Notes: a model not told the origin generated them from the letters alone. 64,000 bases of DNA from Candidatus Bipolaricaulota bacterium (GCA_040752575.1 JBFMGK010000067.1:1931-65930), one strand, 5' to 3'. Positions 29,494-43,444 are shown, counted from the stretch's first letter. Numbers and translations are program-made.

Positions 29494-29575
29494 CGCCGCC
29501 ACCCCCCACAATCCGTTTGCAGAGCTCGAGCACCTGCTGCCGTCCAGGCCTCGCCCGCTTCTCGTGCCGGCTGCG

Positions 29576-30517
29576 TCATGGTTTCTCACCCCGCGCGCTG
29601 GGCACACGCCGCATCGCGGCGCGGAGCATGCCTCGAATGCCCTGAGGCAGGAACAGCGTGACGATCACGATGATCGCCCCGTAGACCAGGAGATGACCAT
29701 AGGGGATCTGCAGCTTCAGATACTCCGACAAGGCGCCAAGCACGAGCCCCCCGAGCACGGGCCCCCACGTACTGTGGATCCCCCCGAGGAGGGCCATGGC
29801 CAGCGGGAGCAGGAGGAAGTTGGCGCTGAAGCTCCCCTCGGGAGAGACGAAGCCGAAGACGTGGGCATAGGTTCCGCCCGCGATCCCCTGAATCGCCGAC
29901 GTCACGGCGAAGACGAACACTAGGTACCAGAACACGTTGACGCCGCTCGTCTTGGCGACCCTCTCGTCATTTCGGATCGATGTGAGGGCAAGGTGGATTC
30001 TCGTTCGTTCGAAGACCTCGGAGACGACGATCGTCAGCAGGGCGAGCCCCAGGATGAGCCAGTAGACCTTCGTCGTGTCGCCGGCGTAGATGCAGGATGG
30101 GAGCATCTTTCCCTCGGGGCCCCCGCTCACCTGCGGGAGATTCCGCAGCACGACCGAGAAAATGCTCGCCAGCGCAAGCGTCGTGATCGCAAAGTACATT
30201 CCGCGCAGCCGCAGAACGGCAAGGCCGATCAGCGTCGCTACGGCGCCGGCCACCAGGCCGCCGAACGCGATGCTCAGGAACGGATGGATGTCCGTCTCCA
30301 GGAACAACAGGACGGCGGCGTAGCTTCCAAGCCCAAAGAAGCCGTGCGTGCCGAAGCCCAGCTGCCCCGAACGAAGCAGCATGTCCCAGCTCAGGGCCAG
30401 CGTCAGGTAGATCATCGTAGAGCCCGCGACCTGTTCGAGGTACGCTCCCGTCAGCAAGGGGAGAACCCCGGCCAGTGCGGCTCCAAGAACATAGGGGATG
30501 GCTCTCTGGATCCTCAT
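29576..30517 (-). CDS. livM: branched-chain amino acid-type ABC transporter permease (LivM-like)
   Basis: 313 aa polytopic membrane protein with the LivM/BPD_transp_2 pattern. Confidence 0.85.
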   Translation of the reverse strand: MRIQRAIPYVLGAALAGVLPLLTGAYLEQVAGSTMIYLTLALSWDMLLRSGQLGFGTHGFFGLGSYAAVLLFLETDIHPFLSIAFGGLVAGAVATLIGLAVLRLRGMYFAITTLALASIFSVVLRNLPQVSGGPEGKMLPSCIYAGDTTKVYWLILGLALLTIVVSEVFERTRIHLALTSIRNDERVAKTSGVNVFWYLVFVFAVTSAIQGIAGGTYAHVFGFVSPEGSFSANFLLLPLAMALLGGIHSTWGPVLGGLVLGALSEYLKLQIPYGHLLVYGAIIVIVTLFLPQGIRGMLRAAMRRVPSARGEKP

Positions 30518-31449
30518 GCCGCATGCCTCCGGTACGACCTCGCCATAATCACTGCGACCAGCACCGCGAAAAACACGACGTCCGCCCAGCCACCATATCC
30601 GCGGAACGAGAGCACAATGGCTTCGGCCACGCCGAGCCCGAACCCTCCCCAGACAATGCCCGGGAGGTTTCCGATGCCGGACATCGCGATGAGACAGAAC
30701 GATTTCATCGTGAACGGCGATCCGGCCGATGGGAACACGGAGTGTCGCGTCAGAAACATCGCGCCGATTGCGCCAACCAGGGCTATGGAAAGACCGAAGA
30801 TAAGAAGATACGTGCGGTTCACATCAATGCCCACGAGTCGCGCGCCCCGAGGGTTCTGGCCCACCGCCAAGGCGGCCCGACCGAGGCGTGTGCGGCGGAG
30901 AAACGCAAGGAGCACGATGAGCAGCACGATCGCCCCCGCCGTATAGATGAAGGCGTAGGTGCCGAACCTCAGCTGGCCCAGGGCCATCGACGAGTAGACG
31001 TAGGAGAGAGACGGCTTGCGCGGTTGCGACGTCCACATGAGATTCGCGAACTCGGCTCCGACCATGGCCATGCCGAAGGTCAGAAGCAACTGGTTGAGTT
31101 CCGGCGCTTTGAGCGCACGACGAATGGTCAGCCAGTACGTGACGGCCCCCACGAGGAAGAACGCTCCAAGGGCAGGGATCATCGCCACGAGGGGGTCGAC
31201 GCCCGCCGACACTCGAAACCAGTACGCCGCGTACGCTCCGAGCATCATGAACTCACCGTGTGCCAAGTTGATAATGCCGACGACTCCGAGGATGAGCGCC
31301 ATCGGGAGCGCAATCAGCGCATAGAGTCCCCCGCGCTGGATCCCCTCGATCAGAGCGTACGGCTTCCACAGCATCAGGAGAACGACGATCCCTCCCGTGA
31401 CGGCCAGGAGGACCCATTGTCCCCGCCTCATCGTGCGAAGAAGTCTCAT
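30514..31449 (-). CDS. livH: branched-chain amino acid-type ABC transporter permease (LivH-like)
   Basis: Start at MRLLRTMRRGQWVLL. LivH-like hydrophobic profile. 4-nt overlap with livM. Confidence 0.85.
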   Translation of the reverse strand: MRLLRTMRRGQWVLLAVTGGIVVLLMLWKPYALIEGIQRGGLYALIALPMALILGVVGIINLAHGEFMMLGAYAAYWFRVSAGVDPLVAMIPALGAFFLVGAVTYWLTIRRALKAPELNQLLLTFGMAMVGAEFANLMWTSQPRKPSLSYVYSSMALGQLRFGTYAFIYTAGAIVLLIVLLAFLRRTRLGRAALAVGQNPRGARLVGIDVNRTYLLIFGLSIALVGAIGAMFLTRHSVFPSAGSPFTMKSFCLIAMSGIGNLPGIVWGGFGLGVAEAIVLSFRGYGGWADVVFFAVLVAVIMARSYRRHAA

Positions 31450-31528
31450 CTCAGCCCGGCTCCTTGCCGCGGGCCGGCCTGCCAACGCAGGCCAGCCCGC
31501 GTCCTAACTGCCCAACAACAGACGCTCT

Positions 31529-32719
31529 CTACCGCCCCGTGAACGGGTACATCGGCAGAGCCGTCGCGTACTCGAAGGGCCACAGCACCTGCTGTGCGCC
31601 GTTCTGCCACTGGAGGATCTTCTGCTTCGAGAAGCCCTGGTGCTCGATCAGGTTCGAGGGGGAGAACGTCAGCGTTTCGCCCAGCGGAGAAACGTAGTTC
31701 GTCGCCTCGAGGGCCTCAATCAGCGGCTCTCTGTCCAGGGTGCCTGCGCGGGTGATCGCTTCCGCGACCACGTAGACGTTCGTGTACCCGAGCGGCGCGA
31801 AGTACGTCGCCGGCTCCTCGCCGAACGCCGCGATGTAGGCGTCCCAGAAGTGCTGACTGACCGGGCTCACGTCTTTGATCGACGGAGCCCACATCCCGTA
31901 AGCAACGACACCATTGGCAAGGGGCGACTCGCCGAAGTCCGCTGGCCATCCCGGAGGAGATCCCACGAAGAGCGCAGGCGTGAAGCCGATCTCCCGCGCC
32001 TGCTCCATGATCGGAAGGGCGTCCGCGCCGTACCCGACCCAGATGAAGATGTCGGGATCCTCTTCCTGAGCATGGCGCAGGACGGATCGATAGTCACCGC
32101 CGCCCAACAGCGCGCTCTTGAACGACTCACCGATGTTCTCCCAGTCCGCGTGCGCGACGAGGCTTCCCTGGAAGGAACTGGTTCCGAAGGCTCCTTCCTC
32201 GTAGGCCCAGAAGGCCTTCTCGATCTGGATCAACGGGTACTCCTCCGCGATCGCAGCCCACCCTTCGACGTAGCTTGCTCCCTGGAGGTAGTCCCACGGA
32301 TGGACGTGGAAGTACCAATCCAGGCCCACGACCGCCTGTTCGACGAGCGACGAGGCGGCGCCGATCCAGACCGTGACCTTCTCGTACTTCTTCAGAGTCG
32401 GAATCTGGCCGAGGTGCACGCCGCTGCTCATGCCGCCGATGAACACGTCCACGTTGTGGACCGTCGCCAACAGGTCGATGGCTGCGGCGCCTTTCTCCGG
32501 CTTGTTCTCGTCGTCGATCACGATGAGTTCCAGCTGACGACCCAGAATCCCGCCCGCCGCGTTGATCTCGTCAACGGCGAGCTGCATTGCCTTGCTGCCC
32601 TGTGCGCCCGTGATGTCCGCGAGCGGGAGAACCGCGCCAAGCTTGATCGTGTCCTGGCCGACGGCGACGAGACCCGCTCCGAGCATGACGAGGACCGCGA
32701 GTGCCAACATCCTCTTCAT
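31529..32719 (-). CDS. livK: ABC transporter substrate-binding protein, LivK/LivJ family (periplasmic binding protein type I)
   Basis: Signal peptide MKRMLALAVLVMLGAGLVAVG, then a Leu/Ile/Val-binding-protein-like fold. The start is approximate (±3 nt). Confidence 0.8.
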   Translation of the reverse strand: MKRMLALAVLVMLGAGLVAVGQDTIKLGAVLPLADITGAQGSKAMQLAVDEINAAGGILGRQLELIVIDDENKPEKGAAAIDLLATVHNVDVFIGGMSSGVHLGQIPTLKKYEKVTVWIGAASSLVEQAVVGLDWYFHVHPWDYLQGASYVEGWAAIAEEYPLIQIEKAFWAYEEGAFGTSSFQGSLVAHADWENIGESFKSALLGGGDYRSVLRHAQEEDPDIFIWVGYGADALPIMEQAREIGFTPALFVGSPPGWPADFGESPLANGVVAYGMWAPSIKDVSPVSQHFWDAYIAAFGEEPATYFAPLGYTNVYVVAEAITRAGTLDREPLIEALEATNYVSPLGETLTFSPSNLIEHQGFSKQKILQWQNGAQQVLWPFEYATALPMYPFTGR

Positions 32720-32839
32720 CTTGGCCCTTCCTTTCGACCTCACGTAGATCTCTGCGACTCCGACGTTCTCGAGCCTTCTCAGGTCTGTGTCCGCGTCACC
32801 TCCTCTTCTCTACAGGGTCCGGAAAACTCCGCTTCGCGC

Positions 32840-33652
32840 TCATGCCTGCTTGTGTTTCGTCAGGAATCCGATCACGACCGTCAGGAAGTCCCCGGGACGC
32901 TCCAGGCACGCCCCGTGCCCCGCTCCCGGCAGGCTGACGAACTCCGCCTGGGGGATGGCTTCGGCCATCTCCTCCATGACCCGCTGCGGAGTCAAGAGGT
33001 CTTCCTCGGCGGCGAGAAGGAGCGTGGGCATGGTGAGCCGGCGCAGGTCCTCGGCCGACATCCGGAAAGGAATCGCGCTGTGGCACAGCCGCGTGAATCC
33101 GTCGAACCACTCGCGCGTCAGTGCGCTCTTGAACATCGCCTGGCGCTGATGAAGCGCCTCAAGGTGTTTCGCATAGAAGGCGCGGGAGTAGATGTACGGC
33201 ACCGCCAGTTGGAAGAATCGCTCGCCATCGTAGAGCCGAGCCGCCACTTCCCACGCTCGTCCGATCTCGGCGAGCAGGTTCGTGATGTAGTAGTTCACGT
33301 TGGCGAGGATGAGCGTCTTGATGCGTTCGGGATGCGTACACGCGACCCGTTGGGCAACCTGCCCACCGTACGAGACCCCCATCAGGTGGGCCTTCTCGAT
33401 CCCGAGTTCGTCGAGCAGCTTCACGACATCCCCAGTGTGGACGTCGATCGAGTACTCGTCTTTCATGCGACCCGAGCGTCCCTGGTCCCGCAAATCCAGC
33501 AAGATGAGCTGGACGTGGCGCGAAAGCACCGGAACGTGTCCCATCCAGCTCGCCGCGCTCATCATGATGCCGCCCAGCAGCACGAGCGGCTCGCCCGTCC
33601 CGTGAACCTCGTAGTAGAGCTCTAGACCGTCATGGGCCCGGAACGTCGACAT
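32840..33652 (-). CDS. alpha/beta-fold hydrolase
   Basis: Start at MKMSTFRAHDG with GGGGAG 6 nt upstream. Nucleophile elbow GVSYGG and HGTGEPLVLLGG oxyanion region. The ORF-track N-terminal extension is rejected. Confidence 0.75.
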   Translation of the reverse strand: MSTFRAHDGLELYYEVHGTGEPLVLLGGIMMSAASWMGHVPVLSRHVQLILLDLRDQGRSGRMKDEYSIDVHTGDVVKLLDELGIEKAHLMGVSYGGQVAQRVACTHPERIKTLILANVNYYITNLLAEIGRAWEVAARLYDGERFFQLAVPYIYSRAFYAKHLEALHQRQAMFKSALTREWFDGFTRLCHSAIPFRMSAEDLRRLTMPTLLLAAEEDLLTPQRVMEEMAEAIPQAEFVSLPGAGHGACLERPGDFLTVVIGFLTKHKQA

Positions 33653-34463
33653 CTTCATCTCCCCTCTCCGTCGCGCGGAGCGTACGAGTCGTCTCCAGTC
33701 TCCCCTCAGCAAGCTGCCGGCGAACCCGCTCCGCAAAGTCAGGGTGCCGGAAGCAATCGGCAAAGCGCTCGGACTCCACGCGTAGTCCTTGCCGCAGCGG
33801 GAACTCGTCGGCCGCGTGGAGCGCCGCCTTCGCCCCAGCCAGGGCATGGGCGGGAAGCGACGCGACCTTCTCGGCCCATGACGCCGCTGCAGCGTCGAGA
33901 GATCCAACCGCGACCACTTCGGTGACCAGGCCCATGGCGTGCGCCGCCGCGGCGTCGTACAGCTTGCCGCCCAGGATCATCTCCGCCGCGCGAGCCGCGC
34001 CGATCGCACGCGGCAGGCGTTGTGTTCCGCCTCCGCCGGGGAGGATTCCCAGGCGGACCTCTGGAAGGCCGAGACGAGCATCGTCCGCCGCCAGACGTAG
34101 GTCGCACGCGAGGGCGAATTCGAGCCCCCCGCCGAAGCACAGGCCGCGGATCGCCGCCACCAAGAAGAGGGGGCTCGCCTCCATCCGCGAGAACAACGCT
34201 TGGATCCTCGAAGAGAAAGCCAGCGCCTCGTCCGGAGACAGCTCGAACATCTCCACGCCATCGGCACCGCCGACAAAGTGCTTCTCCCCGGAACCCCGGT
34301 AGATCACCGCGCGCCCCCCCGCCGCCTCGAACGCGTCGAGGTGGGCACGCAGCTCGCCGATCGTCGCCGTGTCAAGGGAGTTGCGATCCCGAGTGCGATC
34401 GATCGTCACCCAGGACACGCTGCGCGACGTCTGCACGATCAGGTTCCGCCATGGTCCGGCCAC
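33630..34463 (-). CDS. enoyl-CoA hydratase/isomerase (crotonase family)
   Basis: 277 aa. Crotonase motifs FVGGADGVEM and CFGGGLEFALACD. Confidence 0.85.
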   Translation of the reverse strand: MAGPWRNLIVQTSRSVSWVTIDRTRDRNSLDTATIGELRAHLDAFEAAGGRAVIYRGSGEKHFVGGADGVEMFELSPDEALAFSSRIQALFSRMEASPLFLVAAIRGLCFGGGLEFALACDLRLAADDARLGLPEVRLGILPGGGGTQRLPRAIGAARAAEMILGGKLYDAAAAHAMGLVTEVVAVGSLDAAAASWAEKVASLPAHALAGAKAALHAADEFPLRQGLRVESERFADCFRHPDFAERVRRQLAEGRLETTRTLRATERGDEDVDVPGP

Positions 34464-34483
34464 GTTTGCCTCTTCCTCCTACG

Positions 34484-35227
34484 CTAGATGACGAGTCCGC
34501 CATTCGGACTTAGCACTTGTCCGGTGAAGAAGTCCGCCTCCGGACTCGCAAGAAAAACGACGAGGGCAGCGACCTCCTCTGCGGTCCCGAACCTCTTAAG
34601 CGGCGTACGCTGAAGCGTCTGTTCCTTGAACGATGCGTCCAGTCTCTGCAGCATGGGCGTTTCGATGTACCCCGGAGCGATCGCATTGACTCGCACGTCG
34701 TATCGAGCCGTCTCCCGGGCCAGTGTCTTCGTCAGCTGGATGACTCCACCCTTGCTCGCGCTGTAGTGGAGCGCACCGGGCGTCGGCATGAGCCCGGCTA
34801 CCGAACTGAAGTTGACGATGCGCCCCCCTTGTCCTGTCTCCTTCATCCAGCGCACGGCTTCGCGGCAGCAGAAGAACGTCCCATCGAGGTTGACGGACAT
34901 CACGCGCTTCCACTCGCGATCCGTCAAGTCTTCGACAAACGCGGTCTCGCCCATCACGGCGGCGGCGTTCACGACGAGGTCGAGGTTCTCGAGCCGCTCC
35001 CGTAGCGCGGCGAACACTCTCTTTACGTCGGAGCTGTCGGACACGTCAAGCCGATAACCGTCCGTGGCGGGAGGTGTCGGCCCGCCCCAGGAGACGTCGC
35101 CTACGAACACCGAGATGCCGCGCGCCGCGAGCGCTTCGACCACCGCACGCCCGATGCCGGAAGCTCCTCCCGTGACCAGCGCAGTCCGGCAGACGTAGCG
35201 CTCTGTCGCGCCGGCCTCGGGCCTCAT
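34484..35227 (-). CDS. short-chain dehydrogenase/reductase (SDR)
   Basis: TGGASGIGRA cofactor loop, NAAAV and YSASK catalytic motif. ATGA overlap with the upstream SDR. Confidence 0.8.
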   Translation of the reverse strand: MRPEAGATERYVCRTALVTGGASGIGRAVVEALAARGISVFVGDVSWGGPTPPATDGYRLDVSDSSDVKRVFAALRERLENLDLVVNAAAVMGETAFVEDLTDREWKRVMSVNLDGTFFCCREAVRWMKETGQGGRIVNFSSVAGLMPTPGALHYSASKGGVIQLTKTLARETARYDVRVNAIAPGYIETPMLQRLDASFKEQTLQRTPLKRFGTAEEVAALVVFLASPEADFFTGQVLSPNGGLVI

Positions 35228-35979
35228 AGCCCCTCCGCGAATCGCTCGTAGGCGGCACGAGCCCGCGACGTCGGGAAGATCACGAATCGGTCGCTGTCCA
35301 TGCCCTTCACGATGCCCTGCGCCACCTCGTCTGCCGTATCCATTCGATCACGCAAGGAGTCGGCCACGGCCTTCATCTCTTCAGCTCCGTGTCCACGGCC
35401 GAAGAACGGCGTGTCGGTGAGATGGGGACAAGCAACCTGGACCCTAATCCCCGTTCCCTCGAGATCGCGTCGCAGCCCGCGGCTCATGCCGACGAGGGCA
35501 TGTTTGCTGGCGAGATACGCCGAGACCTTCGCGGCGTGAGCGATCAGTCCGCCGGTCGATGCGACCTGCAGAATCAGGCCCCGGTTCACAACGCGCATGA
35601 CGCGCAGCGCCTCCTGGGTCATCCGAAACGCGGCGACGAGGTTGATTTCGAGCACATCTCGCAGATCGCGCTCCTCGAGTTCGTCGAACGCTCCGTAGCA
35701 GCCGATGCCGGCGCTGTTGACGAGGATGTCCAAACCGCCCCAGCGCCGAACCACGGAACCCACGATGGATTTGCGGTCGGCGTCGCAGGTCGCATCTCCG
35801 GGCAGGACTGCGGTCTCGCCTGGGCAGTCCCTGGCCGTCTCCATCAGTTCTCTTTCGGACCTCGCGACGAGTGCGACCCGCGCCCCGCCGTGCGAGCAGG
35901 CCCGTGCCAACCCAGCTCCAATACCCGAGCTAGCGCCCGTGATCAAGACCACTTTCCCCGCAAGATGCCCGCCCGTCAT
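35224..35979 (-). CDS. short-chain dehydrogenase/reductase (SDR)
   Basis: TGASSGIGAG, NSAGIG and YLASK motifs. Confidence 0.8.
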   Translation of the reverse strand: MTGGHLAGKVVLITGASSGIGAGLARACSHGGARVALVARSERELMETARDCPGETAVLPGDATCDADRKSIVGSVVRRWGGLDILVNSAGIGCYGAFDELEERDLRDVLEINLVAAFRMTQEALRVMRVVNRGLILQVASTGGLIAHAAKVSAYLASKHALVGMSRGLRRDLEGTGIRVQVACPHLTDTPFFGRGHGAEEMKAVADSLRDRMDTADEVAQGIVKGMDSDRFVIFPTSRARAAYERFAEGL

Positions 35980-35988
35980 CTCACGCCC

Positions 35989-37203
35989 CTAGAAGCCACC
36001 GTAGGTCTCACGCTCCCAATCCCGCTCGTCGGTTGAGTACACGACGGCCACATCGTCGGATCCGAAGATGGCCGCGGCGGCGCTGCGATCCATCGTTCCT
36101 GCCTCGACGAACGCCGTGATGAGCTGCAGCGTCTCCGCGGGGCGGTGGATCGGGAATCCGTGGTCGTAGCCCCGGCCGGACTTGAGCATCACCGCGGTCA
36201 CGTTTGCCCCCGCAACGCGCAGGTCGTACTTCGTGTTCTGGGTGATGGAGTCGGCAATCACGAGATCGCCGCGCCATCTGAGCCGATCGGTCTCGGCCTT
36301 CACCAGGAGAACATCGAGTCCTGCCAACGCATCGAGGCGGTCGGCCCCGGGAAGGGTCACCACGGCGCCGTCTTGGTTCCGATGCGACAGCGTCTCGGCC
36401 GCGAAGTTGAACATATGGCTCGCGTAGAGAGACTCCGGCATGTACTGCGTCTTCTGGACGTCTTCGAGCACCGCGCGGTAGGCTGGCGTCTCGAGGTACG
36501 CAGGATCGCCGACGGACATCCGCGCGAGGTCGTACGCGAGGACCTCGTTGAACACCACGAGATTCCAGGCGGCTGCCATGTCTTCGGGCGAACGCTGCTC
36601 GCCCCACAAGGAACGCTGCTGGAACGCGACGGCGTCGATCGAGTCCGCCCAATCCCCCAACGCGTAATGCTTCCCCGTCTGCGGATCGGTACCCCCCGTC
36701 GTCGGAGAGAACATCACGCGCACGCCTCGCGTCCCGATCCCGGCCAGAGAGATCAGTCGCGAGACGCTTGCCCGGCTCCTCACGGCCAGGCACTGGGCCA
36801 CTCCGAACCCCATCGAGTGGCCGACGAGCGTGAGGTCGCCTCTGCGCAGGCAGGAATCGCTCTCGATCACCTCGGCGAAGTCCGCGGCGAAGTCGTCGAG
36901 CGAGGTGATCGGGTGATGGTAGGTCGAGCGGCCGCTTCCCCGGTAGTCCAGGGCATAGAACGTGTAGCGGTTGTAGACGTCCGCCCGCGCCGCGACCCGG
37001 CATAGCAGCTCCCGAAAGGCCTCGCCCGAGCAGTTGTTGCCCGCGAGAAGGACAACGGCCTCGTCTCCGCGACCGACGCGCAGGACTCCGATCGCTTCCC
37101 CGCTCGACACGCGCACGGTGCGCTCCTCGACGCGGCGTGACGCCGGACCGCTGCACGACGAGAGAAGACCGACAAAGCAAAAGGTCATCCCCAGGCCCAG
37201 CAT
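35989..37203 (-). CDS. alpha/beta hydrolase lipoprotein
   Basis: Start at MLGLGMTFCFVGLLSSCSG (lipobox LSSC), GGAGGAG RBS. Nucleophile elbow GHSMG. Confidence 0.7.
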   Translation of the reverse strand: MLGLGMTFCFVGLLSSCSGPASRRVEERTVRVSSGEAIGVLRVGRGDEAVVLLAGNNCSGEAFRELLCRVAARADVYNRYTFYALDYRGSGRSTYHHPITSLDDFAADFAEVIESDSCLRRGDLTLVGHSMGFGVAQCLAVRSRASVSRLISLAGIGTRGVRVMFSPTTGGTDPQTGKHYALGDWADSIDAVAFQQRSLWGEQRSPEDMAAAWNLVVFNEVLAYDLARMSVGDPAYLETPAYRAVLEDVQKTQYMPESLYASHMFNFAAETLSHRNQDGAVVTLPGADRLDALAGLDVLLVKAETDRLRWRGDLVIADSITQNTKYDLRVAGANVTAVMLKSGRGYDHGFPIHRPAETLQLITAFVEAGTMDRSAAAAIFGSDDVAVVYSTDERDWERETYGGF

Positions 37204-37269
37204 CTCGCTCCTCCATCGCCGTAGGCGCTGACTTGATCGCACTTCGCTCGCCATCCTGCTCTGGCGCTC

Positions 37270-38007
37270 CTAGGGAATGAGGCCGCCATCCACGCATACG
37301 ACGGACCCGTTCACATAGGCGGCGTCGTCCGACGCAAGGAACAGGTACACGTTCGCCACGTCGCGCGCCGTGCCCAGACGGCCGAGCGGCGTTCGCGACC
37401 GCATGAGGTCCAGGACTTTCTCCGGGACCCCCTCGGTCATCTCCGTCTGGATGAACCCCGGAGCGACGGCATTGACCGTGATCCCCTTCCGCCCAAGTTC
37501 ACGGGCCCACACTTTGGTCATTCCGATGACTCCGGCCTTCGTCGCAGCGTAGTTTGTCTGCCCGAAGTTCCCGTAGACTCCGACGACGGAAGAGACGTTG
37601 ATGATCCGGCCGCTTCCCTGGTCCAGCATCCGCGGGGCCACCGCCTGCGTGAGGTTGAACGTGCCTTTGAGGTTCACGGCGATAACCCGATCGAAGTCGT
37701 TCTCGGAGAGCTTGACCAGCTGCGCATCGCGGGTGATGCCGGCGTTGTTGACCAGAATGTCGATCCGGCCGAATGCGCTCACGGCGGACTCGACGAGCGC
37801 CGAGCACTGCTCGCGGCTCGTGACATCGCCGCGCGCGAAGGTCGCCTCCCCCCCATGGGATCGGATCTCCAGGACGACCTTCTCTCCCTGCGGATCGACA
37901 TCGGCAACAACGACTCTGGCCCCTTCTCGGGCGAACAGCGTGGCGGCCTCGCGGCCAATCCCGCGACCAGCCCCCGTGATCATGGCGACCTTCCCCGCTA
38001 GGCGCAT
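37270..38007 (-). CDS. fabG: 3-oxoacyl-[ACP] reductase (FabG-like SDR)
   Basis: Start at MRLAGKVAMITGAGRGIG with AAAGGAGA upstream. NNAGI and YAATK motifs. Full-length FabG-like. Confidence 0.85.
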   Translation of the reverse strand: MRLAGKVAMITGAGRGIGREAATLFAREGARVVVADVDPQGEKVVLEIRSHGGEATFARGDVTSREQCSALVESAVSAFGRIDILVNNAGITRDAQLVKLSENDFDRVIAVNLKGTFNLTQAVAPRMLDQGSGRIINVSSVVGVYGNFGQTNYAATKAGVIGMTKVWARELGRKGITVNAVAPGFIQTEMTEGVPEKVLDLMRSRTPLGRLGTARDVANVYLFLASDDAAYVNGSVVCVDGGLIP

Positions 38008-38023
38008 GACGACCGTCTCCTTT

Positions 38024-39043
38024 CTAGGCCCATCGGAACAGCGCCGTGGACAAGACAAACCCCGCACCCGACGTACAGAACGCCACCAGATCGCCCGCCG
38101 AGATCCGCCCCCGGTCCAGAGCATCGCAGAGCGCCATGAAGACGGATGCCGAGCCCGCGTAGCCGAACTTGTCGGCGACCCAATGAGTCTTTTCCATCGA
38201 GAGGCCCAAAGCCTCGAGCGTCGCTCGCACAGCTCCCACTTCCACCTGGTTCATGAGGACAAGATCGAGATCCTTCGGCGTCACGCCGGCGGCTTCGGTG
38301 GTCTTGCGCATCAGAACTGGCCATCGCGTGACGTTGAAGTCGCCGGGTACGCGGTGAGCGTTCTCGTGGAACCTCAGGTAGTGCTGCTTGTTCGCCACCA
38401 TCTCCGGCGTCAGAGGACGTCCTGTCCCGAGGTAGATGCCGTAGGTATCCCAGCAGCTGCCTTCACTCATCATCTTGCTCGCCAGGTACCCGGGCTCGCG
38501 GGACGGCGAGAGCACAACGGCTCCGGCGCCGTCACTGAACAGCGTGGCCAGCACCTTGGAAGCCGATTGGGAATAGGGGCTCCAGTCTAGCCACTTCGTC
38601 ATGCCGTAGGCGCCTACGATGACGACGTGCTGGATCGCCGGGTCCAGGGCGATGTAGTGCGACCCGATCGCCAGGGCGATCGTCTCGTCGGTGCACGCGG
38701 CGTTGATGTCGAAAGCACCAGCGTTCCGGGCTCCCAGCTTGTGCTGGATGATCGCCGAGGTCGGCGGGCTCACGTAGTCCGGCGTGTCCGTCGCGAGGAT
38801 GATCAGGTCGACCTCATCCGGCCGAAGCCCGGCCTGCTTCAAGGCCTGGCGCGTCGCCTCGACCGCCATGTCAGACGCGGACTCGTCGGGCCGGGCCCGA
38901 AATCGGACGCCGATCCCCTTCTCCGCGAGGTACGACTCGACGTCGTACTCCATCATCCTCCCGAGTTCGGCGTTGGTGATCCGCTCCTCGGGGATGTACA
39001 TCCCGACCCCGGAGATCTTGGCAGCTCGCAGCGCGTTGACCAT
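38024..39043 (-). CDS. 3-oxoacyl-ACP synthase III (FabH)-like condensing enzyme with a non-canonical triad
   Basis: 339 aa. Aligns with FabH through the AFDxxAAC(T) active-site Cys and DGAGA motifs. The positions of FabH His244 and Asn274 appear as Asn (LMNQVE) and Tyr (FGYAGSAS). Confidence 0.75.
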   Translation of the reverse strand: MVNALRAAKISGVGMYIPEERITNAELGRMMEYDVESYLAEKGIGVRFRARPDESASDMAVEATRQALKQAGLRPDEVDLIILATDTPDYVSPPTSAIIQHKLGARNAGAFDINAACTDETIALAIGSHYIALDPAIQHVVIVGAYGMTKWLDWSPYSQSASKVLATLFSDGAGAVVLSPSREPGYLASKMMSEGSCWDTYGIYLGTGRPLTPEMVANKQHYLRFHENAHRVPGDFNVTRWPVLMRKTTEAAGVTPKDLDLVLMNQVEVGAVRATLEALGLSMEKTHWVADKFGYAGSASVFMALCDALDRGRISAGDLVAFCTSGAGFVLSTALFRWA

Positions 39044-39049
39044 CGTGAC

Positions 39050-39496
39050 CTACCCCTCCACCCTGGCCAGAACGACGGTCGCTCGACCGTCGGGAAGGAT
39101 CTCGGCGCGGGGCATCAGCGACATCCCCACCCGGAGCGCGTCGGCCGGAACGCCAAGGATCCAGCCCGTGACGCGCAACCCGTTCTTCATCTCGACGATG
39201 CCCACCGGGCGCGGCTGATACGAGTAGGCGGAGAACGGCGCGGTGCGCGACAGGTCCGGCGTGAAGTGCTTGGGCGTAACGTAGATCGATGTGAACGAGA
39301 TCAGGCGGCCTTCGCCGGACACCGGCACCCACTCAAACGCCGATCCCAGGCAATGGGGACAGTCGCTACGCGGCGGGTACTGCAGCACCCCGCAGGACGA
39401 GCATTTGGAAGCCAGGATCTCTCCACGACCGAGCCCATCGACGAAACCATGCACCTTCGTGTCCTGGATCTGCAGACTGAAGTCTCGGAACTGCAT
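39050..39496 (-). CDS. DUF35 OB-fold/Zn-ribbon protein (thiolase-associated)
   Basis: 148 aa. CxxC...CxxC zinc ribbon (CSSCGVLQYPPRSDCPHC) plus an OB-fold. ATGA overlap with the upstream thiolase. Confidence 0.8.
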   Translation of the reverse strand: MQFRDFSLQIQDTKVHGFVDGLGRGEILASKCSSCGVLQYPPRSDCPHCLGSAFEWVPVSGEGRLISFTSIYVTPKHFTPDLSRTAPFSAYSYQPRPVGIVEMKNGLRVTGWILGVPADALRVGMSLMPRAEILPDGRATVVLARVEG

Positions 39497-39498
39497 CC

Positions 39499-40665
39499 CT
39501 ACTCCTTGTCCGTCGAGAAGATGTGCACCGCTGCGTGCTGCCCGTTGCCGCCGACGTTGTGCGACAGACCCATCTCCGCGCCGGAGACCTGGCGCCCCGG
39601 CTCCGCCTCGCCGCGGAGCTGCTTGGTGATCTCGACGGCCATCGAGACGCCGGTCGTCCCGATGGGATGCCCCTTGGACTTCAGGCCTCCGTCGACATTG
39701 ACCGGAATCCTCCCACCAATCGACGTGTGCCCCTCCTCGACCAGCGGACCTCCCTCGCCGCGCGAGCAGAAGCCGAGGTCTTCATAGGCAACGACCTCAG
39801 CAATCGTGAAACAGTCATGAACCACCGCAACGTCGATGTCTTTCGCTTGTACCCCAGCCATCTCATAGGCCTGCCGCGCCGCCTCGACGGTCGCGCCGAG
39901 CGTCGTCAGGTCCTCGCGATGCGCGAGGGACAGGCTGCCGGTACCCAGACCCAGGCCGCGGATCCAGACGGGCCTTCTCGACATGCGCTTGGCCAGCTTC
40001 TCGGAGGCCAGCAGCACGGCAGCCGCGCCGTCTGAGATCAGGCAGCAGTCGTAGAGCTTGAGCGGGGAGGCAACGACAAACGAACTGAGCGCCTTCTCGA
40101 GGGTGATCTCCTTACGCAGATGCGCGTACGGGTTGAGCGCGCCGTAGCGATGATTCTTGACGGCAACGGCGGCAAGCTGCTCTTCCGTGGTCCCGTACTT
40201 GGCCATGTGGGCTCGAGCAATGAGCGCGTAGTAGCCCGGAAACGTCATTCCGAACGGGTACTCCCAGAGGAAGTCCCCGGCGCGCCCCAGCACTTCGGTC
40301 GCGCGCGCCGTCGGCACTTCCGTCATCTTCTCGGCCCCGACGACCAGCACGAGGTCCGCGAGACCGCAGGCGACGTTCATCCATCCCGTCCGCACGGCCA
40401 TGCTCCCCGACGCGCAAGCGCCTTCCACGCGGAAACTCGGTCTGGGGTGAAAACCAAGGTAGTCGACGACCTGTGCAGACGGCTGAAGTGCACAACTCAA
40501 CTCGTCCGAGGCCACACTGACGACCATGGCCTCGACATCGGCAAGGGGAACGCCGGCATCCTGCAGGCACGCGGCAACTGCCTCGAAGGCCAGCTCGCGC
40601 AGCGATGCGTCCTCGCGAACTCCAAACCGGCCGTGCCCGACGCCGACGACGGCAACGTTTTGCAT
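39499..40665 (-). CDS. thiolase-like protein (SCP-x/archaeal-type acetyl-CoA C-acyltransferase family)
   Basis: 388 aa. Active-site Cys in the GACASGSMAV context, with C-terminal HDCF and GG motifs. GGGAGG RBS. Confidence 0.85.
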   Translation of the reverse strand: MQNVAVVGVGHGRFGVREDASLRELAFEAVAACLQDAGVPLADVEAMVVSVASDELSCALQPSAQVVDYLGFHPRPSFRVEGACASGSMAVRTGWMNVACGLADLVLVVGAEKMTEVPTARATEVLGRAGDFLWEYPFGMTFPGYYALIARAHMAKYGTTEEQLAAVAVKNHRYGALNPYAHLRKEITLEKALSSFVVASPLKLYDCCLISDGAAAVLLASEKLAKRMSRRPVWIRGLGLGTGSLSLAHREDLTTLGATVEAARQAYEMAGVQAKDIDVAVVHDCFTIAEVVAYEDLGFCSRGEGGPLVEEGHTSIGGRIPVNVDGGLKSKGHPIGTTGVSMAVEITKQLRGEAEPGRQVSGAEMGLSHNVGGNGQHAAVHIFSTDKE

Positions 40666-40835: not shown

Positions 40836-42077
40836 CTAGCCGTTGCGGTCGAGAAGTCCTCTCTCCAGAAAGTCCAGCAGGGCGCAGACGACCCGGTCCG
40901 CAGGCACGGGCTTGGCGTCATCGGCCAGCCACCACAAGGCCACGGAGTGCCCGGCACCCAGAAGGGCATAAGAGAGGGGCTCAGGCGCCATCCTGTAGAC
41001 CTCTCCGCGCTCCATCGCCTGACTCAGTCCCGCGGTGTAGCCTCTCGCGAGCCGCTCGTAATACCAACGTCCCGTCTCGGGATCGATCAGCTCTGCCTCG
41101 CGGATGATCCAGTAGGCACCGCGATGCGCAGCGATGAACCGAAAGAAAGCCTGGAAACCCGCAACCTCGACCTCGCGCCGGTCGACGATTCCCGCCAGCG
41201 CGGCTCGTTCCGCGGCTCTGAACTTCCTGTTGATCTCGCGCGCAAGCTCGGCAAAGATAGCCACCTTGCTCGGGAAGTGCAGGTAGAACGTGCCCTGCGC
41301 CACGCCCGCGACGTAGGTGATCGCGGAGACGGATGTCTGATAGAACCCCGTCTGCCCGAACAGACGTTCGGCCGCATCGAGAAGTGCCTGACGCGTGGCT
41401 TCCCCTCCCTGCAATGTGTCCGCGGGGTCGCCTTGCCGAGGCTCGGCCCCGACAGGAGGCCTCTTCATGCCCTCCACCCTGGCGGTGCCGGTGTCGAACC
41501 CGCTCATCACGAGACACTCCAGCGTGCGGTACACGCCCTCATGAAGCGAACCCGGCTCCCAAAGGATGTACCGCATCACCATGAACTCGAGCATCCCAAG
41601 AATCGCGTACGCGGCAGTGGTTTCGTCCACCGCCCGGAAAACGCCGCTCTCGACGCCCGCCCGAAGGACGCGTCCCAACGCCTCGGCAAGGTTCATCCGG
41701 AACTGCCGATGGATCCCAAGCCGAATCGCTTCCGCGCCACGGCCGACGCGATAGAGCGCCGATTCGCGGGCGATGTAGTGAAGCACGTCGCGACACGCTT
41801 GGAGCAGGGCATCGCGGCCGTCGGCCGCCTCGGCGAGCGCTCGCTGGATGCGCTCGCGCATGCCGTTCTGAAGACGCTCGACGAGCGCCGCGAAGATCTC
41901 CTCTTTGTGCTCGAAGTGCCGGTAGAACGTCCCGTTCGCGAGTCCGGCTCTGCGGCAGATCTCCGAGACGGACGCCTCGTGATATCCCCGCTCGCTGAAC
42001 ACGGCTTCCCCGGCTTGCAGGAGCGCTTCTCGCGTTCTCGCCGGAGTGGACCTTCTGCCGCCGATGCCTTTCACCAT
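40836..42077 (-). CDS. tandem-domain TetR-family transcriptional regulator
   Basis: Start at MVKGIGGRRSTP with GGGAGGA upstream. Two TetR N-terminal HTH units (ASVSEICRRAGLANGTFYRHF and TSVSAITYVAGVAQGTFYLHF) in one polypeptide. Confidence 0.8.
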   Translation of the reverse strand: MVKGIGGRRSTPARTREALLQAGEAVFSERGYHEASVSEICRRAGLANGTFYRHFEHKEEIFAALVERLQNGMRERIQRALAEAADGRDALLQACRDVLHYIARESALYRVGRGAEAIRLGIHRQFRMNLAEALGRVLRAGVESGVFRAVDETTAAYAILGMLEFMVMRYILWEPGSLHEGVYRTLECLVMSGFDTGTARVEGMKRPPVGAEPRQGDPADTLQGGEATRQALLDAAERLFGQTGFYQTSVSAITYVAGVAQGTFYLHFPSKVAIFAELAREINRKFRAAERAALAGIVDRREVEVAGFQAFFRFIAAHRGAYWIIREAELIDPETGRWYYERLARGYTAGLSQAMERGEVYRMAPEPLSYALLGAGHSVALWWLADDAKPVPADRVVCALLDFLERGLLDRNG

Positions 42078-42199
42078 GAGGGATCCTCCCGCGTCCTCGC
42101 CCGCGGCGCCGTCACGTCGGCACGGCTCCTCGCGAATGGTACGACGCCCTCTGCGAAGCGCCAAGGCTCGAGGACAGGCAGATGCCCCGCTACGCCTGG

Positions 42200-42228
42200 T
42201 TGTACGTTCCCAAACGTGCAAGCTACAA
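42200..42228 (+). promoter_or_regulatory. candidate promoter with imperfect palindrome upstream of coaBC
   Basis: TTGTAC-N18-TACAAT. The spacer contains the palindrome TTGTACGTT-ccc-AACGTGCAA (8/9 arm matches). It lies in the divergent TetR/coaBC intergenic region. Confidence 0.35.
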
Positions 42229-42250
42229 TCCTCGAGACTCTGGTGAGATC

Positions 42251-43438: not shown

Positions 43439-43444
43439 TCAGCG

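What the first reader, a model, noticed from the sequence alone, without database searches (positions are those of the whole stretch)
38024..40665. Thiolase–DUF35–KAS-III trio mirrors the archaeal thiolase/HMG-CoA-synthase/DUF35 complex
The consecutive thiolase-like, DUF35 and FabH-like genes, followed by FabG, mirror the archaeal thiolase/HMG-CoA-synthase/DUF35 complex. In that complex a DUF35 scaffold joins two thiolase-superfamily enzymes. The FabH-like member keeps the Cys but shows Asn and Tyr at the His/Asn triad positions, suggesting a non-canonical condensing enzyme.
Basis: inference. Interest (0 to 1): 0.55.

Follow-up and report, generated by a model that had tools for sequence, protein, structure and literature searches.

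The report
Thiolase–DUF35 pair beside atypical FabH-like enzyme
The three genes are real and the FabH-like enzyme has lost the His and Asn of the usual catalytic trio, but across its relatives it travels with an importer, a CoA ligase, a reductase and hydrolases, not with the thiolase–DUF35 pair, so a three-protein complex like the archaeal one is unproven.

Summary
On the minus strand, 39499-40665, 39050-39496 and 38024-39043 encode an archaeal/SCP2-type thiolase, a DUF35 protein and a KAS-III-fold protein. A FabG-like reductase follows. Spacers are 2, 6 and 16 nt.

The KAS-III-like protein keeps Cys117. It has Asn265 and Tyr295 where FabH has His244 and Asn274. This defines a distinct clade: Asp86-Cys117-Asn/Thr265-Tyr295 in 80 of 85 members, against x-Cys-His-Asn in 70 of 70 canonical FabH. 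Asp86 aligns with the catalytic Glu of HMG-CoA synthase.

The complex interpretation is only partly supported.
- The third protein belongs to the FabH clade, not to the HMGS/PhlA clade.
- Thiolase plus DUF35 sits upstream only in the closest Bipolaricaulota clade (9 of 9 loci).
- It appears in 1-2 of 43 other family loci. A classical thiolase without DUF35 can occupy the same slot.
- The partners conserved across the family are an importer, a FadD-like ligase, an NAD(H)-type FabG-like SDR, serine hydrolases and TetR.

Most likely reading: a 17-gene TetR-controlled operon that processes an imported carboxylate as CoA esters. The KAS-like enzyme would do non-decarboxylative C-C chemistry on a beta-keto thioester. 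Loci of this domain make-up meet the search criteria of a published 2026 genome survey.

The parts
40836..42221 (-). Tandem TetR-family regulator with two TetR_N domains in one 461-aa protein. It is the first gene of the cluster.
   Evidence: Pfam TetR_N matches twice. NCBIfam gives weak hits to FasR and FadR. A two-domain TetR sits upstream of the cluster in L081, L082 and L088.
39499..40665 (-). Archaeal/SCP2-type beta-ketothiolase, 388 aa. Catalytic motifs are intact: Cys84 (CAS), His283-Asp-Cys-Phe286, Gly332-His-Pro.
   Evidence: NF004720 at 520 bits, above its 420 cut-off. PDB hits are 7yvy at 296 bits, 6esq_A at 261 bits and PhlC 5m3k_C at 132 bits. Motifs located.
39050..39496 (-). DUF35 protein, 148 aa, with a Cys4 zinc ribbon (Cys32/35/46/49) and an OB fold. 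It is the usual small partner of SCP2-type thiolases.
   Evidence: Pfam zf-ChsH2 and OB_ChsH2_C. PDB hits are 9myr_B, 6ok1_B, 6esq_E, 7pxp_A (BbsA) and 9vbo_H (PhlB family). Cysteines located.
38024..39043 (-). KAS-III-fold protein, 339 aa, of a distinct clade with Asp86-Cys117-Asn265-(His287)-Tyr295. It is not a canonical FabH.
   Evidence: Pfam ACP_syn_III and ACP_syn_III_C. It scores below the NCBIfam FabH cut-offs (212.6 against 249; 185.7 against 292.1). Alignments. AF2 model has pLDDT 87 and pTM 0.90, and FabH is the top structural match at TM 0.86.
37270..38007 (-). FabG-like classical SDR, 245 aa (Tyr153-x3-Lys), with Asp36 at the end of strand beta2, which predicts NAD(H) preference.
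   Evidence: TIGR01830 at 308.5 bits and NF004198 at 312 bits. It is the gene directly downstream of the KAS-like gene in 42 of 72 family loci. Asp36 is kept in 35 of 35 distinct orthologues.
35989..37254 (-). Alpha/beta-hydrolase, 421 aa, with a GHSMG nucleophile elbow and an N-terminal lipoprotein-like signal (…FVGLLSSC…).
   Evidence: Pfam Abhydrolase_1 and Abhydrolase_6. NCBIfam i_nPHAscl at 84 bits, below its cut-off. The only clear PDB hit is the PHB depolymerase 8ynv at 53.6 bits. A related hydrolase type recurs in at least 15 family loci.
35224..35979 (-). Second SDR, 251 aa.
   Evidence: Pfam adh_short.
34484..35227 (-). Third SDR, 247 aa, FabG-like.
   Evidence: Pfam adh_short_C2. 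NF009466 at 227.6 bits.
33630..34463 (-). Crotonase-family enoyl-CoA hydratase/isomerase, 277 aa.
   Evidence: Pfam ECH_1 at 169 bits.
32840..33661 (-). Serine alpha/beta-hydrolase, 273 aa (GVSYG), esterase-like. This is the hydrolase type conserved next to the KAS-like gene across the family.
   Evidence: Pfam Abhydrolase_1. The best solved relative is the metagenomic esterase MGS-M2, 4q3l, at 160 bits. It is present in 48 of 79 family loci.
28076..32743 (-). Liv-type ABC importer. Substrate-binding protein at 31529-32743, two permeases at 30514-31485 and 29576-30517, two ATPases at 28771-29607 and about 28076-28777.
   Evidence: Pfam Peripla_BP_6. The same five-gene set is called in L081 and L082 with Pfam BPD_transp_2 and ABC_tran. 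Transporter genes are present in 45 of 79 family loci despite short contigs.
27409..28041 (-). FMN_red-family flavoprotein, 210 aa.
   Evidence: Pfam FMN_red at 83 bits. It holds the same position in L082 and L087.
25811..27412 (-). FadD-like acyl-CoA ligase, 533 aa. It is the last gene of the cluster.
   Evidence: Pfam AMP-binding and AMP-binding_C. NF004837 long-chain-fatty-acid--CoA ligase at 433 bits, against a cut-off of 476. An AMP-ligase directly follows the KAS-like gene even in distant members L005 (Bdellovibrio) and L008 (Phaeodactylibacter).

Best explanation
**What the locus is.** The trio is the head of a 17-gene, TetR-controlled operon (25811-42221, minus strand) in a Candidatus Bipolaricaulota genome. 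The operon imports a carboxylate through a Liv-type ABC system and activates it with a FadD-like ligase. It then processes beta-hydroxy and beta-keto acyl-CoA intermediates.

**Thiolase and DUF35.** These two proteins form an ordinary two-subunit archaeal/SCP2-type beta-ketothiolase with every catalytic motif intact.

**The KAS-III-like protein.**
- It belongs to a separate, uncharacterised clade of the FabH family with the signature Asp86-Cys117-Asn/Thr265-Tyr295.
- It lacks the His and Asn that FabH needs to decarboxylate malonyl-ACP. It also lacks the ACP-docking Arg. It keeps the CoA-adenine clamp as Tyr38 and Lys163.
- Inferred mechanism: an acyl-CoA acylates Cys117. The enzyme then makes or breaks a C-C bond next to a beta-keto group without decarboxylation, in the manner of OleA, HMGS or a thiolase.
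- Asp86 occupies the position of the HMGS catalytic Glu and would act as the base. Asn/Thr265 and Tyr295 would hydrogen-bond the oxyanion.
- It works with the NAD(H)-type, FabG-like (probably R-specific) 3-hydroxyacyl/3-oxoacyl oxidoreductase encoded directly after it.

**Possible pathway.** A plausible concrete role is catabolism of imported or ester-released 3-hydroxyalkanoates: hydrolases, then ligase, then NAD+ oxidation, then C-C cleavage.

**Shown versus inferred.** Shown: gene content, operon structure, family signature and conserved neighbours. Inferred: the chemistry, its direction and the substrate.
For: **Operon and domains.**

**Loss of the triad.** Searches place the substitutions. 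In one search the signature D-C-[N/T]-H-Y occurs in 80 of 85 family sequences. Canonical FabH shows x-C-H-x-N in 70 of 70, and none has Asp or Glu at position 86.

**Family size.** In the library clustered at 50% identity, every full-length representative scoring 263 bits or more carries D-C-[N/T]-x-Y, apart from one with Glu at the last position (about 20 such clusters). Most below that score are canonical.

**Asp86.** It aligns with Glu95 of human HMGCS1, and Cys117 with Cys129, by hhalign. The HMGCS1 sequence used was validated against 2p8u at 846 bits.

**Binding residues.** In one search, Lys163 aligns with FabH Arg151 and Tyr38 with Trp32. Gly270 aligns with the ACP-docking Arg249.

**No ACP context.** There is no ACP and no other KAS gene in the 64 kb window.

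**Conserved neighbours in 79 non-redundant loci.**
- FabG-type SDR in 51 loci, and directly downstream of the KAS-like gene in 42 of 72.
- Alpha/beta-hydrolase of the abh2 type in 48.
- Transporter genes in 45.
- AMP-ligase in 36.
- TetR in 33.

**Other points.**
- Asp36 is kept in 35 of 35 partner SDRs.
- No acyl-CoA dehydrogenase emerged as a recurrent family in any locus.
- The core set persists in Bdellovibrio and Phaeodactylibacter, where a TonB-dependent receptor takes the place of the ABC importer in one case.
- The hydrolases' nearest characterised relatives are PHB depolymerase and esterases.
Against: - No member of this clade has been characterised, and no substrate is known.
- The substrate-binding protein has no informative solved relative.
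- His287 is not invariant in the wider family; Pro, Thr, Val or Tyr replace it in some clusters. The catalytic set beyond Asp and Cys is therefore uncertain.
- The position of Asp86 near Cys117 rests on alignment to HMGS and on what is known of this fold. The model's coordinates could not be inspected.
- The hhalign match covers only the N-terminal half, with low overall probability (8.7%, E = 0.0038).
- It is unexplained why many loci carry both a thiolase and this enzyme.
- NAD(H) preference does not fix the direction of the reaction in a fermenter.
- A DUF35-bridged assembly in this particular lineage is not excluded.
Confidence: 0.45

Rival explanations
1. DUF35 bridges the thiolase dimer and the KAS-III-like dimer into a channelling complex. 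Such a complex would resemble the archaeal thiolase/HMGCS/DUF35 assembly, PhlACB or MucABC. The KAS-like enzyme would consume the thiolase product.
For: - The three genes are tightly coupled, with 2-nt and 6-nt spacers.
- The order thiolase-DUF35-KAS is kept in 9 of 9 closest relatives.
- The thiolase and DUF35 are homologues of complex-forming subunits.
- DUF35 pairs are known to recruit third partners: HMGS, PhlA and MucA (PMC12960953; PMC6392133), and the SDR and dehydratase of the Sulfolobus fatty acid synthase (bioRxiv 10.1101/2024.07.05.601840).
- Asp86 sits at the position of the HMGS catalytic Glu.
Against: - The third protein is FabH-clade, not HMGS/PhlA-clade.
- Outside the closest clade, SCP2-thiolase plus DUF35 is near the KAS-like gene in only 1-2 of 43 loci. 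A classical thiolase without DUF35 is present in 10 of 43, and in L088 it holds the identical slot.
- Distant members have no thiolase nearby at all.
- The KAS-like protein shows no insertion or deletion specific to the closest clade that might mark a docking adaptation.
- Gene order differs from phlACB and mucABC.
Confidence: 0.22
2. The KAS-III-like protein is an acyltransferase or transacylase rather than a C-C enzyme. It would move an acyl group from CoA, or from an ester such as a 3-hydroxyalkanoate oligomer, through Cys117 to an O, N or S acceptor. CerJ, ChlB6 and DpsC are KAS-III-like enzymes of this kind.
For: - Only the acyl-enzyme-forming Cys of the FabH triad survives.
- By established knowledge, FabH His244 and Asn274 mutants keep transacylation but lose decarboxylation.
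- Serine hydrolases are constant neighbours.
Against: - No ACP, polyketide, sugar or other secondary-metabolite genes occur in any locus.
- The tightest partner is a 3-oxoacyl/3-hydroxyacyl-type SDR, which points to beta-keto chemistry.
- The invariant Asp86 at the HMGS base position fits carbanion chemistry better.
Confidence: 0.15
3. The KAS-III-like protein is a catalytically dead structural subunit. PhlA, MucA and the P. fluorescens HMGS-DUF35 fusion are examples of this kind.
For: Two of the three FabH triad residues are lost. Published bacterial complexes contain inactive HMGS-like subunits.
Against: - Those inactive subunits lack the whole E-C-H-N tetrad, including the Cys. Here Cys117 is invariant.
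- A new conserved set, Asp86, Asn/Thr265 and Tyr295, has replaced the old residues in about 100 sequences.
- The gene mostly occurs without any thiolase-DUF35 pair to scaffold.
Confidence: 0.06
4. It is a genuine FabH that starts type II fatty acid synthesis, followed by the pathway's FabG.
For: Automatic annotation calls it ketoacyl-ACP synthase III. FabH is the best structural match at TM 0.86. The next gene passes the FabG model cut-offs.
Against: - His244 and Asn274 are replaced.
- It scores below both NCBIfam FabH cut-offs.
- The ACP-docking Arg249 is Gly270.
- There is no acpP, fabD or fabF in the window. Canonical FabH loci fetched for comparison carry a fabG about 1 kb downstream of fabH and the intact triad.
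- The partner SDR has the NAD(H)-type Asp36.
Confidence: 0.02

Closest known systems
Bacterial HMGS-like/ACAT/DUF35 loci: PhlACB of Pseudomonas protegens, MucABC of Streptococcus, and about 1,000 'orphan' loci (Liao et al. 2026, PMC12960953; Pavkov-Keller et al. 2018, PMC6392133)
   Same: - An SCP2/archaeal-type thiolase, a DUF35 protein with zinc ribbon and OB fold, and a second thiolase-superfamily protein carrying PF08541 are co-located.
- The locus meets the Pfam criterion those authors used (PF08541, PF00108 and PF01796 within 10 genes).
- As in the P. fluorescens example, the thiolase keeps Cys, HDxF and GHx.
   Different: - The third protein here is FabH-clade and keeps its Cys together with a new conserved residue set. 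PhlA, MucA and PfHMGS are HMGS-clade and lack the whole E-C-H-N tetrad.
- Gene order is thiolase-DUF35-X rather than X-thiolase-DUF35.
- The third gene's family mostly occurs without DUF35.
- No assembly has been demonstrated.
[quoted passage not shown]
   Same: - The thiolase matches 6esq_A at 261 bits, and its HDxF His283 corresponds to the archaeal His284.
- DUF35 is homologous.
- The second enzyme has an acidic residue and a Cys at the HMGS Glu and Cys positions.
   Different: - The second enzyme is not an HMGS. The match is 50 bits and covers only the N-terminal third.
- His and Asn of the E-C-H-N tetrad are Asn and Tyr here.
- There is no mevalonate-pathway context.
- The operon is catabolic or salvage in style, with an importer, a ligase and TetR.
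Canonical FabH (KAS III) and its close functional variants BioZ and PqsD
   Same: It has the same fold (TM 0.84-0.86) and about 30% identity. The catalytic Cys and the CoA-adenine clamp positions are conserved.
   Different: - His244 is Asn or Thr, and Asn274 is Tyr.
- Thr81 is an invariant Asp.
- Arg249 is lost.
- There is a family-specific insert at about residues 195-235.
- There is no ACP, FabD or FabF context.
- It scores below the curated FabH cut-offs.
OleA and the OleABCD olefin/beta-lactone pathway
   Same: OleA is a KAS-III-fold enzyme that performs a non-decarboxylative Claisen condensation with an acidic base. The same four enzyme classes are neighbours: KAS-like, SDR, alpha/beta-hydrolase and AMP-ligase.
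   Different: - Similarity to OleA is weak (44-92 bits, partial).
- By established knowledge, OleA keeps His and Asn, OleB uses an Asp nucleophile and OleD is an extended SDR. Here the hydrolases have Ser elbows and the SDR is classical.
- The importer and TetR do not fit olefin synthesis.
Archaeal ACP-independent fatty acid synthase: ketothiolase/DUF35, SDR reductase, MaoC dehydratase and enoyl reductase (Sulfolobus; bioRxiv 10.1101/2024.07.05.601840)
   Same: A ketothiolase/DUF35 pair lies in an operon with FabG-like SDRs and a hydratase. All steps use CoA and no ACP. By my recollection the Sulfolobus genes are also TetR-regulated.
   Different: - There is no MaoC dehydratase and no MDR-type enoyl-CoA reductase.
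- The SDR is predicted to prefer NAD(H).
- An extra KAS-like enzyme, an importer, a ligase and hydrolases point to use of an external substrate.

Membership tests
Canonical FabH / KAS III | Cys-His-Asn catalytic triad (E. coli C112/H244/N274) | tested here: not met
   Cys117 is kept. His is replaced by Asn265 and Asn by Tyr295.
Canonical FabH / KAS III | Score above the curated NCBIfam FabH cut-offs | tested here: not met
   NF006829 scores 212.6 against 249. TIGR00747 scores 185.7 against 292.1.
Canonical FabH / KAS III | ACP docking (Arg249) and type II fatty acid synthesis context (acpP, fabD, fabF) | tested here: not met
   Arg249 aligns with Gly270. There is no ACP in the window and no FAS genes in family loci.
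Canonical FabH / KAS III | KAS-III thiolase fold | tested here: met
   The AF2 model has pLDDT 87. Foldseek puts FabH 4ryb on top at TM 0.86.
HMGS/ACAT/DUF35 tripartite complexes (archaeal, PhlACB, MucABC) | SCP2/archaeal-type ACAT with CxS, HDxF and GHx motifs | tested here: met
   C84-A-S, H283-D-C-F and G332-H-P. 6esq_A matches at 261 bits.
HMGS/ACAT/DUF35 tripartite complexes (archaeal, PhlACB, MucABC) | DUF35 subunit with a Cys4 zinc ribbon and an OB fold | tested here: met
   Pfam zf-ChsH2 and OB_ChsH2_C. Cys32/35/46/49.
HMGS/ACAT/DUF35 tripartite complexes (archaeal, PhlACB, MucABC) | Third subunit belongs to the HMGS/PhlA clade | tested here: not met
   HMGS 6esq_I matches at only 49.8 bits over residues 10-125. 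PhlA is absent from the matches shown (top 60 by sequence, top 50 by fold). FabH, BioZ and PqsD rank first.
HMGS/ACAT/DUF35 tripartite complexes (archaeal, PhlACB, MucABC) | Co-localisation of PF08541, PF00108 and PF01796 (the mining criterion of Liao et al. 2026) | tested here: met
   All three Pfam domains occur in adjacent genes. The criterion is quoted.
HMGS/ACAT/DUF35 tripartite complexes (archaeal, PhlACB, MucABC) | Physical DUF35-bridged assembly with a fused CoA chamber | not testable with these tools
   No multimer prediction or coordinates were available. Comparative genomics argues against an obligate association.
HMG-CoA synthase | E-C-H-N catalytic tetrad | tested here: not met
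   The first two positions read Asp86 and Cys117 by hhalign. The last two follow from the FabH His/Asn alignment and read Asn265 and Tyr295.
OleA / OleABCD | Close homology to OleA with Cys-His-Asn plus a Glu base, and OleB/C/D-type partners | tested here: not met
   OleA structures match at 44-92 bits and only in part. The triad is absent. The hydrolases have Ser elbows. No OleB, OleC or OleD model appears among the listed NCBIfam hits of the hydrolases, ligase or SDRs (best 25 each).
Archaeal ACP-independent FAS complex | Ketothiolase/DUF35, SDR reductase, MaoC dehydratase and MDR enoyl-CoA reductase | tested here: inconclusive
   The ketothiolase/DUF35 pair and SDRs are present. Among the 14 cluster genes scanned, Pfam and NCBIfam gave a crotonase but no MaoC dehydratase or MDR-type reductase. 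The other three are ABC-transporter genes by homology.

The most novel reading that the evidence does not exclude
A FabH-derived clade has lost the decarboxylation residues. It has convergently gained an acidic base at the HMG-CoA-synthase Glu position, giving Asp86 and Cys117 with Asn/Thr265 and Tyr295. This would create a new CoA-dependent, ACP-independent enzyme that forms or cleaves C-C bonds without decarboxylation.

With an NAD(H)-type R-specific reductase, a ligase, esterases and an importer, it would define an undescribed pathway for using 3-hydroxy or 3-oxo acids, possibly derived from PHA. The pathway would span Bipolaricaulota, Dehalococcoidia, Nitrospirota, Bdellovibrio and Bacteroidota.

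In Bipolaricaulota the enzyme may additionally dock onto the thiolase/DUF35 scaffold.
Probability: 0.3. Interest if true: 0.6.

Novelty: new variant of a known kind. Interest (0 to 1): 0.4.

Why it matters
Thiolase-superfamily enzymes are a standard example of how a few active-site changes redirect C-C chemistry. This clade is compact and sharply bounded. It has about 20 full-length clusters at 50% identity (more if fragments are counted), against thousands of FabH clusters. All are annotated 'ketoacyl-ACP synthase III', yet by sequence they cannot perform the FabH reaction.

Working out its reaction would correct a systematic mis-annotation. It would also add a new catalytic solution to the superfamily. 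It could explain a conserved but unassigned uptake and CoA-activation operon in abundant uncultured anaerobes of digesters and the subsurface. The clade is also a natural test of whether DUF35 scaffolds can recruit partners other than HMGS.

Tried and rejected
1. **Genome scan swamped.** The genome-contig scan with the full-length family alignment picked a generic FabH motif, and canonical fabH loci swamped the result. It did yield 10 distant members with the D-C-T-H-Y signature. I repeated the scan on metagenome contigs with a C-terminal sub-alignment, and that worked.
2. **OleABCD analogy rejected.** The same four enzyme classes are present. However, OleA similarity is weak, the triad differs, the hydrolases have Ser nucleophiles, the SDR is classical, and an importer and TetR are present.
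3. **BioZ/BioH-type pimelate synthesis and MenE/MenH/MenB readings rejected.** All hits fall far below the curated cut-offs. BioZ keeps Cys-His-Asn.
4. **Classical beta-oxidation operon rejected.** No acyl-CoA dehydrogenase emerged as a recurrent family in about 80 loci.
5. **Substrate-binding protein.** Its solved relatives are too distant to suggest a ligand.
6. **Multimer prediction not possible.** The structure tool takes one chain and returns no coordinates or PAE. A stop-containing DUF35-KAS read-through without a paired alignment would have told nothing, so I did not submit it.
7. **Literature gaps.** The Vögeli 2018 paper is not held. A search for the MGS-M2 esterase found nothing. Searches on Bipolaricaulota lipid metabolism and on KAS-III-like enzymes lacking the triad gave nothing specific.
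8. **His287 as a relocated catalytic His.** This is weakened because His287 is not invariant in the wider family.

Full report
**1. Observation**

The window has 62-70% G+C. The nearest homologues of the central gene come from Candidatus Bipolaricaulis and Bipolaricaulota, at up to 92% identity.

The finding's coordinates match three consecutive minus-strand ORFs exactly.
- 39499-40665 encodes a 388-aa thiolase. It matches Pfam Thiolase_N and Thiolase_C_1, and NCBIfam NF004720 at 520 bits against a cut-off of 420.
- 39050-39496 encodes a 148-aa DUF35 protein with zf-ChsH2 and OB_ChsH2_C domains.
- 38024-39043 encodes a 339-aa protein with both KAS-III Pfam domains.
- A FabG-like SDR follows at 37270-38007.

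The junctions are TAG-gg-ATG, TAG-6 nt-ATG and TAG-16 nt-ATG. Each has a Shine-Dalgarno-like motif, so the four genes form one transcription unit.

**2. The triad claim holds**

HMMER alignments to three solved FabH structures, MAFFT with E. coli FabH and hmmalign against 70 canonical FabH sequences agree. They place Cys117 on Cys112, Asn265 on His244 and Tyr295 on Asn274.

The protein scores below both curated FabH cut-offs (212.6 against 249; 185.7 against 292.1). The ACP-docking Arg249 aligns with Gly270. The CoA-adenine clamp (Trp32 and Arg151 in E. coli FabH, from established knowledge) is kept conservatively as Tyr38 and Lys163. There is no ACP gene and no other KAS gene in the 64 kb window.

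An AlphaFold2 model is confident (pLDDT 87.4, pTM 0.90). Its best structural neighbours are FabH (TM 0.86), BioZ, ZhuH and PqsD. The fold is KAS III, but the enzyme cannot be a FabH.

**3. A distinct protein family**

| Set | Signature at positions 86/117/265/287/295 | Count |
|---|---|---|
| Family sequences from fetched loci | D-C-[N or T]-H-Y | 80 of 85 (49 Asn, 31 Thr) |
| Canonical FabH from other loci | x-C-H-x-N, never Asp or Glu at 86 | 70 of 70 |

A profile search of 1.84 billion cluster representatives shows a sharp boundary. With one exception (Glu at the last position), every full-length hit of 263 bits or more has D-C-[N/T]-x-Y, about 20 clusters at 50% identity. Most hits below that score are canonical C-H-N. 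His287 is common but not universal in the wider family.

Profile-profile alignment puts Asp86 on the catalytic Glu95 of human HMG-CoA synthase, and Cys117 on Cys129. The HMGCS1 sequence used was validated against PDB 2p8u at 846 bits. In the terms of the published HMGS tetrad E-C-H-N (PMC12960953), this family reads D-C-N/T-Y.

**4. The thiolase and DUF35 are conventional**

The thiolase matches the Methanothermococcus complex thiolase 6esq_A at 261 bits, 7yvy at 296 bits, BbsB at 182 bits and PhlC at 132 bits. It keeps Cys84 (CAS), His283-Asp-Cys-Phe and Gly332-His-Pro. Liao et al. show these motifs to be essential for thiolase activity.

DUF35 keeps its four zinc-ribbon cysteines. It matches DUF35 partners of several thiolases and aldolases: 9myr_B, 6ok1_B, 6esq_E, BbsA and a PhlB-family protein.

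**5. Genomic context decides the interpretation**

The trio heads a 17-gene cluster at 25811-42221. In order, it contains:
1. a tandem TetR regulator
2. the thiolase
3. DUF35
4. the KAS-like gene
5. the FabG-like SDR
6. an alpha/beta-hydrolase
7. two further SDRs
8. a crotonase
9. a second alpha/beta-hydrolase
10. a five-gene Liv-type ABC importer
11. an FMN_red flavoprotein
12. a FadD-like ligase

Ca. Bipolaricaulis anaerobius contigs have nearly the same cluster, without the first hydrolase.

I fetched contexts for eight further lineages and 80 metagenomic family loci, then classified their neighbours.

| Feature | Closest clade | Rest of family |
|---|---|---|
| SCP2-thiolase plus DUF35 directly upstream | 9 of 9 | 1-2 of 43 |
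| Classical thiolase without DUF35 | 0 of 9 | 10 of 43 |

In L088 the classical thiolase occupies the same slot: TetR2-thiolase-KAS-SDR.

Family-wide partners in 79 non-redundant loci, many of them short contigs:
- FabG-type SDR in 51 loci, and directly downstream of the KAS-like gene in 42 of 72
- esterase-like alpha/beta-hydrolase in 48
- ABC transporter in 45
- AMP-ligase in 36
- TetR in 33

No acyl-CoA dehydrogenase emerged as a recurrent family in these loci. Distant members with the D-C-T-H-Y signature in Bdellovibrio and Phaeodactylibacter still have KAS followed by an AMP-ligase. In Bdellovibrio an SDR and two hydrolases lie on the divergent strand. In Phaeodactylibacter a TonB-dependent receptor lies upstream of the KAS-like gene. 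Neither has a thiolase or DUF35 nearby.

The presence of DUF35 here is therefore explained by its thiolase. The KAS-like enzyme does not generally depend on it.

**6. The partner reductase**

All 35 distinct FabG-like SDRs found directly after the KAS-like gene have an Asp at the end of strand beta2 (Asp36, 'VVVAD'). By the established classical-SDR coenzyme rule this marks NAD(H) preference, unlike the NADPH-dependent FabG of fatty acid synthesis.

The hydrolases have Ser nucleophile elbows. Their nearest characterised relatives are a PHB depolymerase (8ynv, 53.6 bits; NCBIfam i_nPHAscl at 80-84 bits, below cut-off) and a metagenomic esterase (4q3l, 160 bits).

**7. Most likely mechanism (inferred)**

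1. A carboxylate is imported and converted to a CoA ester by the ligase.
2. The NAD(H)-type SDR interconverts the 3-hydroxy and 3-oxo forms. It is probably R-specific, as FabG and PhaB are.
3. The KAS-like enzyme forms an acyl-Cys117 intermediate. It then makes or cleaves the C-C bond beside the beta-keto group without decarboxylation. Asp86 acts as the base, and Asn/Thr265 and Tyr295 act as hydrogen-bond donors.
4. The thiolase/DUF35 pair handles acetoacetyl-CoA or 3-oxoacyl-CoA.

Catabolism of 3-hydroxyalkanoates fits the gene set and the lack of an acyl-CoA dehydrogenase. The hydrolases could release such acids from esters or PHA oligomers. The substrate and the direction of the reaction remain unproven.

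**8. Comparison with known systems**

- **Bacterial HMGS-like/ACAT/DUF35 loci.** Liao et al. 2026 mined loci with PF08541, PF00108 and PF01796 within 10 genes. They found 1,030 loci, of which 1,001 lacked neighbouring secondary-metabolism genes. This locus meets that criterion, so the co-localisation as a class is already on record.
- **How this locus differs from the characterised complexes.** In the archaeal, PhlACB, MucABC and P. fluorescens complexes the third subunit is HMGS-clade. PhlA is 38.5% identical to the archaeal HMGCS. The bacterial subunits lack the whole tetrad. Here the third protein is FabH-clade and keeps its Cys with a new conserved residue set. Gene order also differs.
- **Archaeal fatty acid synthase.** This complex shows that ketothiolase/DUF35 pairs can also bind an SDR and a dehydratase. 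A DUF35-mediated assembly in this lineage therefore remains possible but untested.
- **Other readings.** OleABCD, BioZ/BioH and Men-pathway interpretations were considered and rejected.

**9. Verdict**

The non-canonical enzyme is real. The mirror-of-the-archaeal-complex idea is not supported by comparative genomics, but it has not been refuted.
- Novelty: a new variant of a known kind.
- Interest is moderate at 0.4. The clade is clearly defined, mis-annotated and apparently uncharacterised, with suggestive active-site rewiring and a conserved unassigned operon. Its function is still inferred, and the headline analogy is weak.

Noticed in passing
window 40836-42221 (-): The regulator is a single 461-aa protein with two complete TetR_N DNA-binding domains, a tandem TetR fusion. 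Two-domain TetR proteins also sit upstream of the cluster in L081, L082 and L088.
   Followed up: partly
window 35989-37254 (-): This alpha/beta-hydrolase lies between FabG and the next SDR. It has a lipoprotein-like N-terminus (…FVGLLSSC…), and its only clear solved relative is a PHB depolymerase (8ynv, 53.6 bits). It is absent from the otherwise identical Ca. Bipolaricaulis anaerobius cluster. A cytoplasmic-looking version recurs in at least 15 other family loci.
   Followed up: partly
window 37270-38007 (-) and orthologues in L091-L170: The 'FabG' passes the NCBIfam FabG equivalog cut-offs. Even so, it has an Asp at the end of strand beta2 (Asp36) in 35 of 35 orthologues, which predicts NAD(H) rather than NADPH use. 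It is probably mis-named by automatic annotation.
   Followed up: yes
window 42182-46812 (+): A coenzyme A biosynthesis operon lies back to back with the acyl-CoA operon's TetR gene. Only the DUF2520 Rossmann protein (43445-44353) was checked with Pfam. CoaBC, PanB, PanC and a type III pantothenate kinase were read by eye. The adjacency is not conserved in Ca. B. anaerobius.
   Followed up: partly
window 58113-63942 (+): An amidohydrolase, a carbamate-kinase-like amino-acid kinase and two tandem paralogous carbamoyltransferases (61807-62844 and 62875-63942) lie together. They may form an ATP-yielding carbamoyl-phosphate fermentation module.
   Followed up: no
window 6142-19829 (-): Two Opp-type ABC systems lie in tandem. 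Their family-5 substrate-binding proteins are unusually long (854 aa at 9701-12265; 725 aa at 17652-19829), and Pfam covers only part of each.
   Followed up: no
window 1093-2628 (-) and 3018-5390 (+): Two large ORFs of 511 and 790 aa, with high third-position G+C, have no Pfam match. They lie next to a MoxR-type AAA ATPase at 113-1096.
   Followed up: no
L008 7327-13817 (Phaeodactylibacter luteus) and L005 7261-12508 (Bdellovibrio): Distant family members at about 40% identity keep the KAS-like gene followed by an AMP-ligase. In Phaeodactylibacter a TonB-dependent receptor precedes the pair and a BioD-like AAA_26 protein follows it. In Bdellovibrio an SDR and two hydrolases are divergently transcribed.
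   Followed up: partly
window 38024-39043 (-), residues about 195-235: A family-specific insert relative to FabH (…YWDTYGIYLGT…RFHEN.HRVP.DFN…) contains several invariant residues but is the least confident part of the AF2 model (pLDDT 56-80). It lies where FabH forms its substrate-entrance flap.
   Followed up: no
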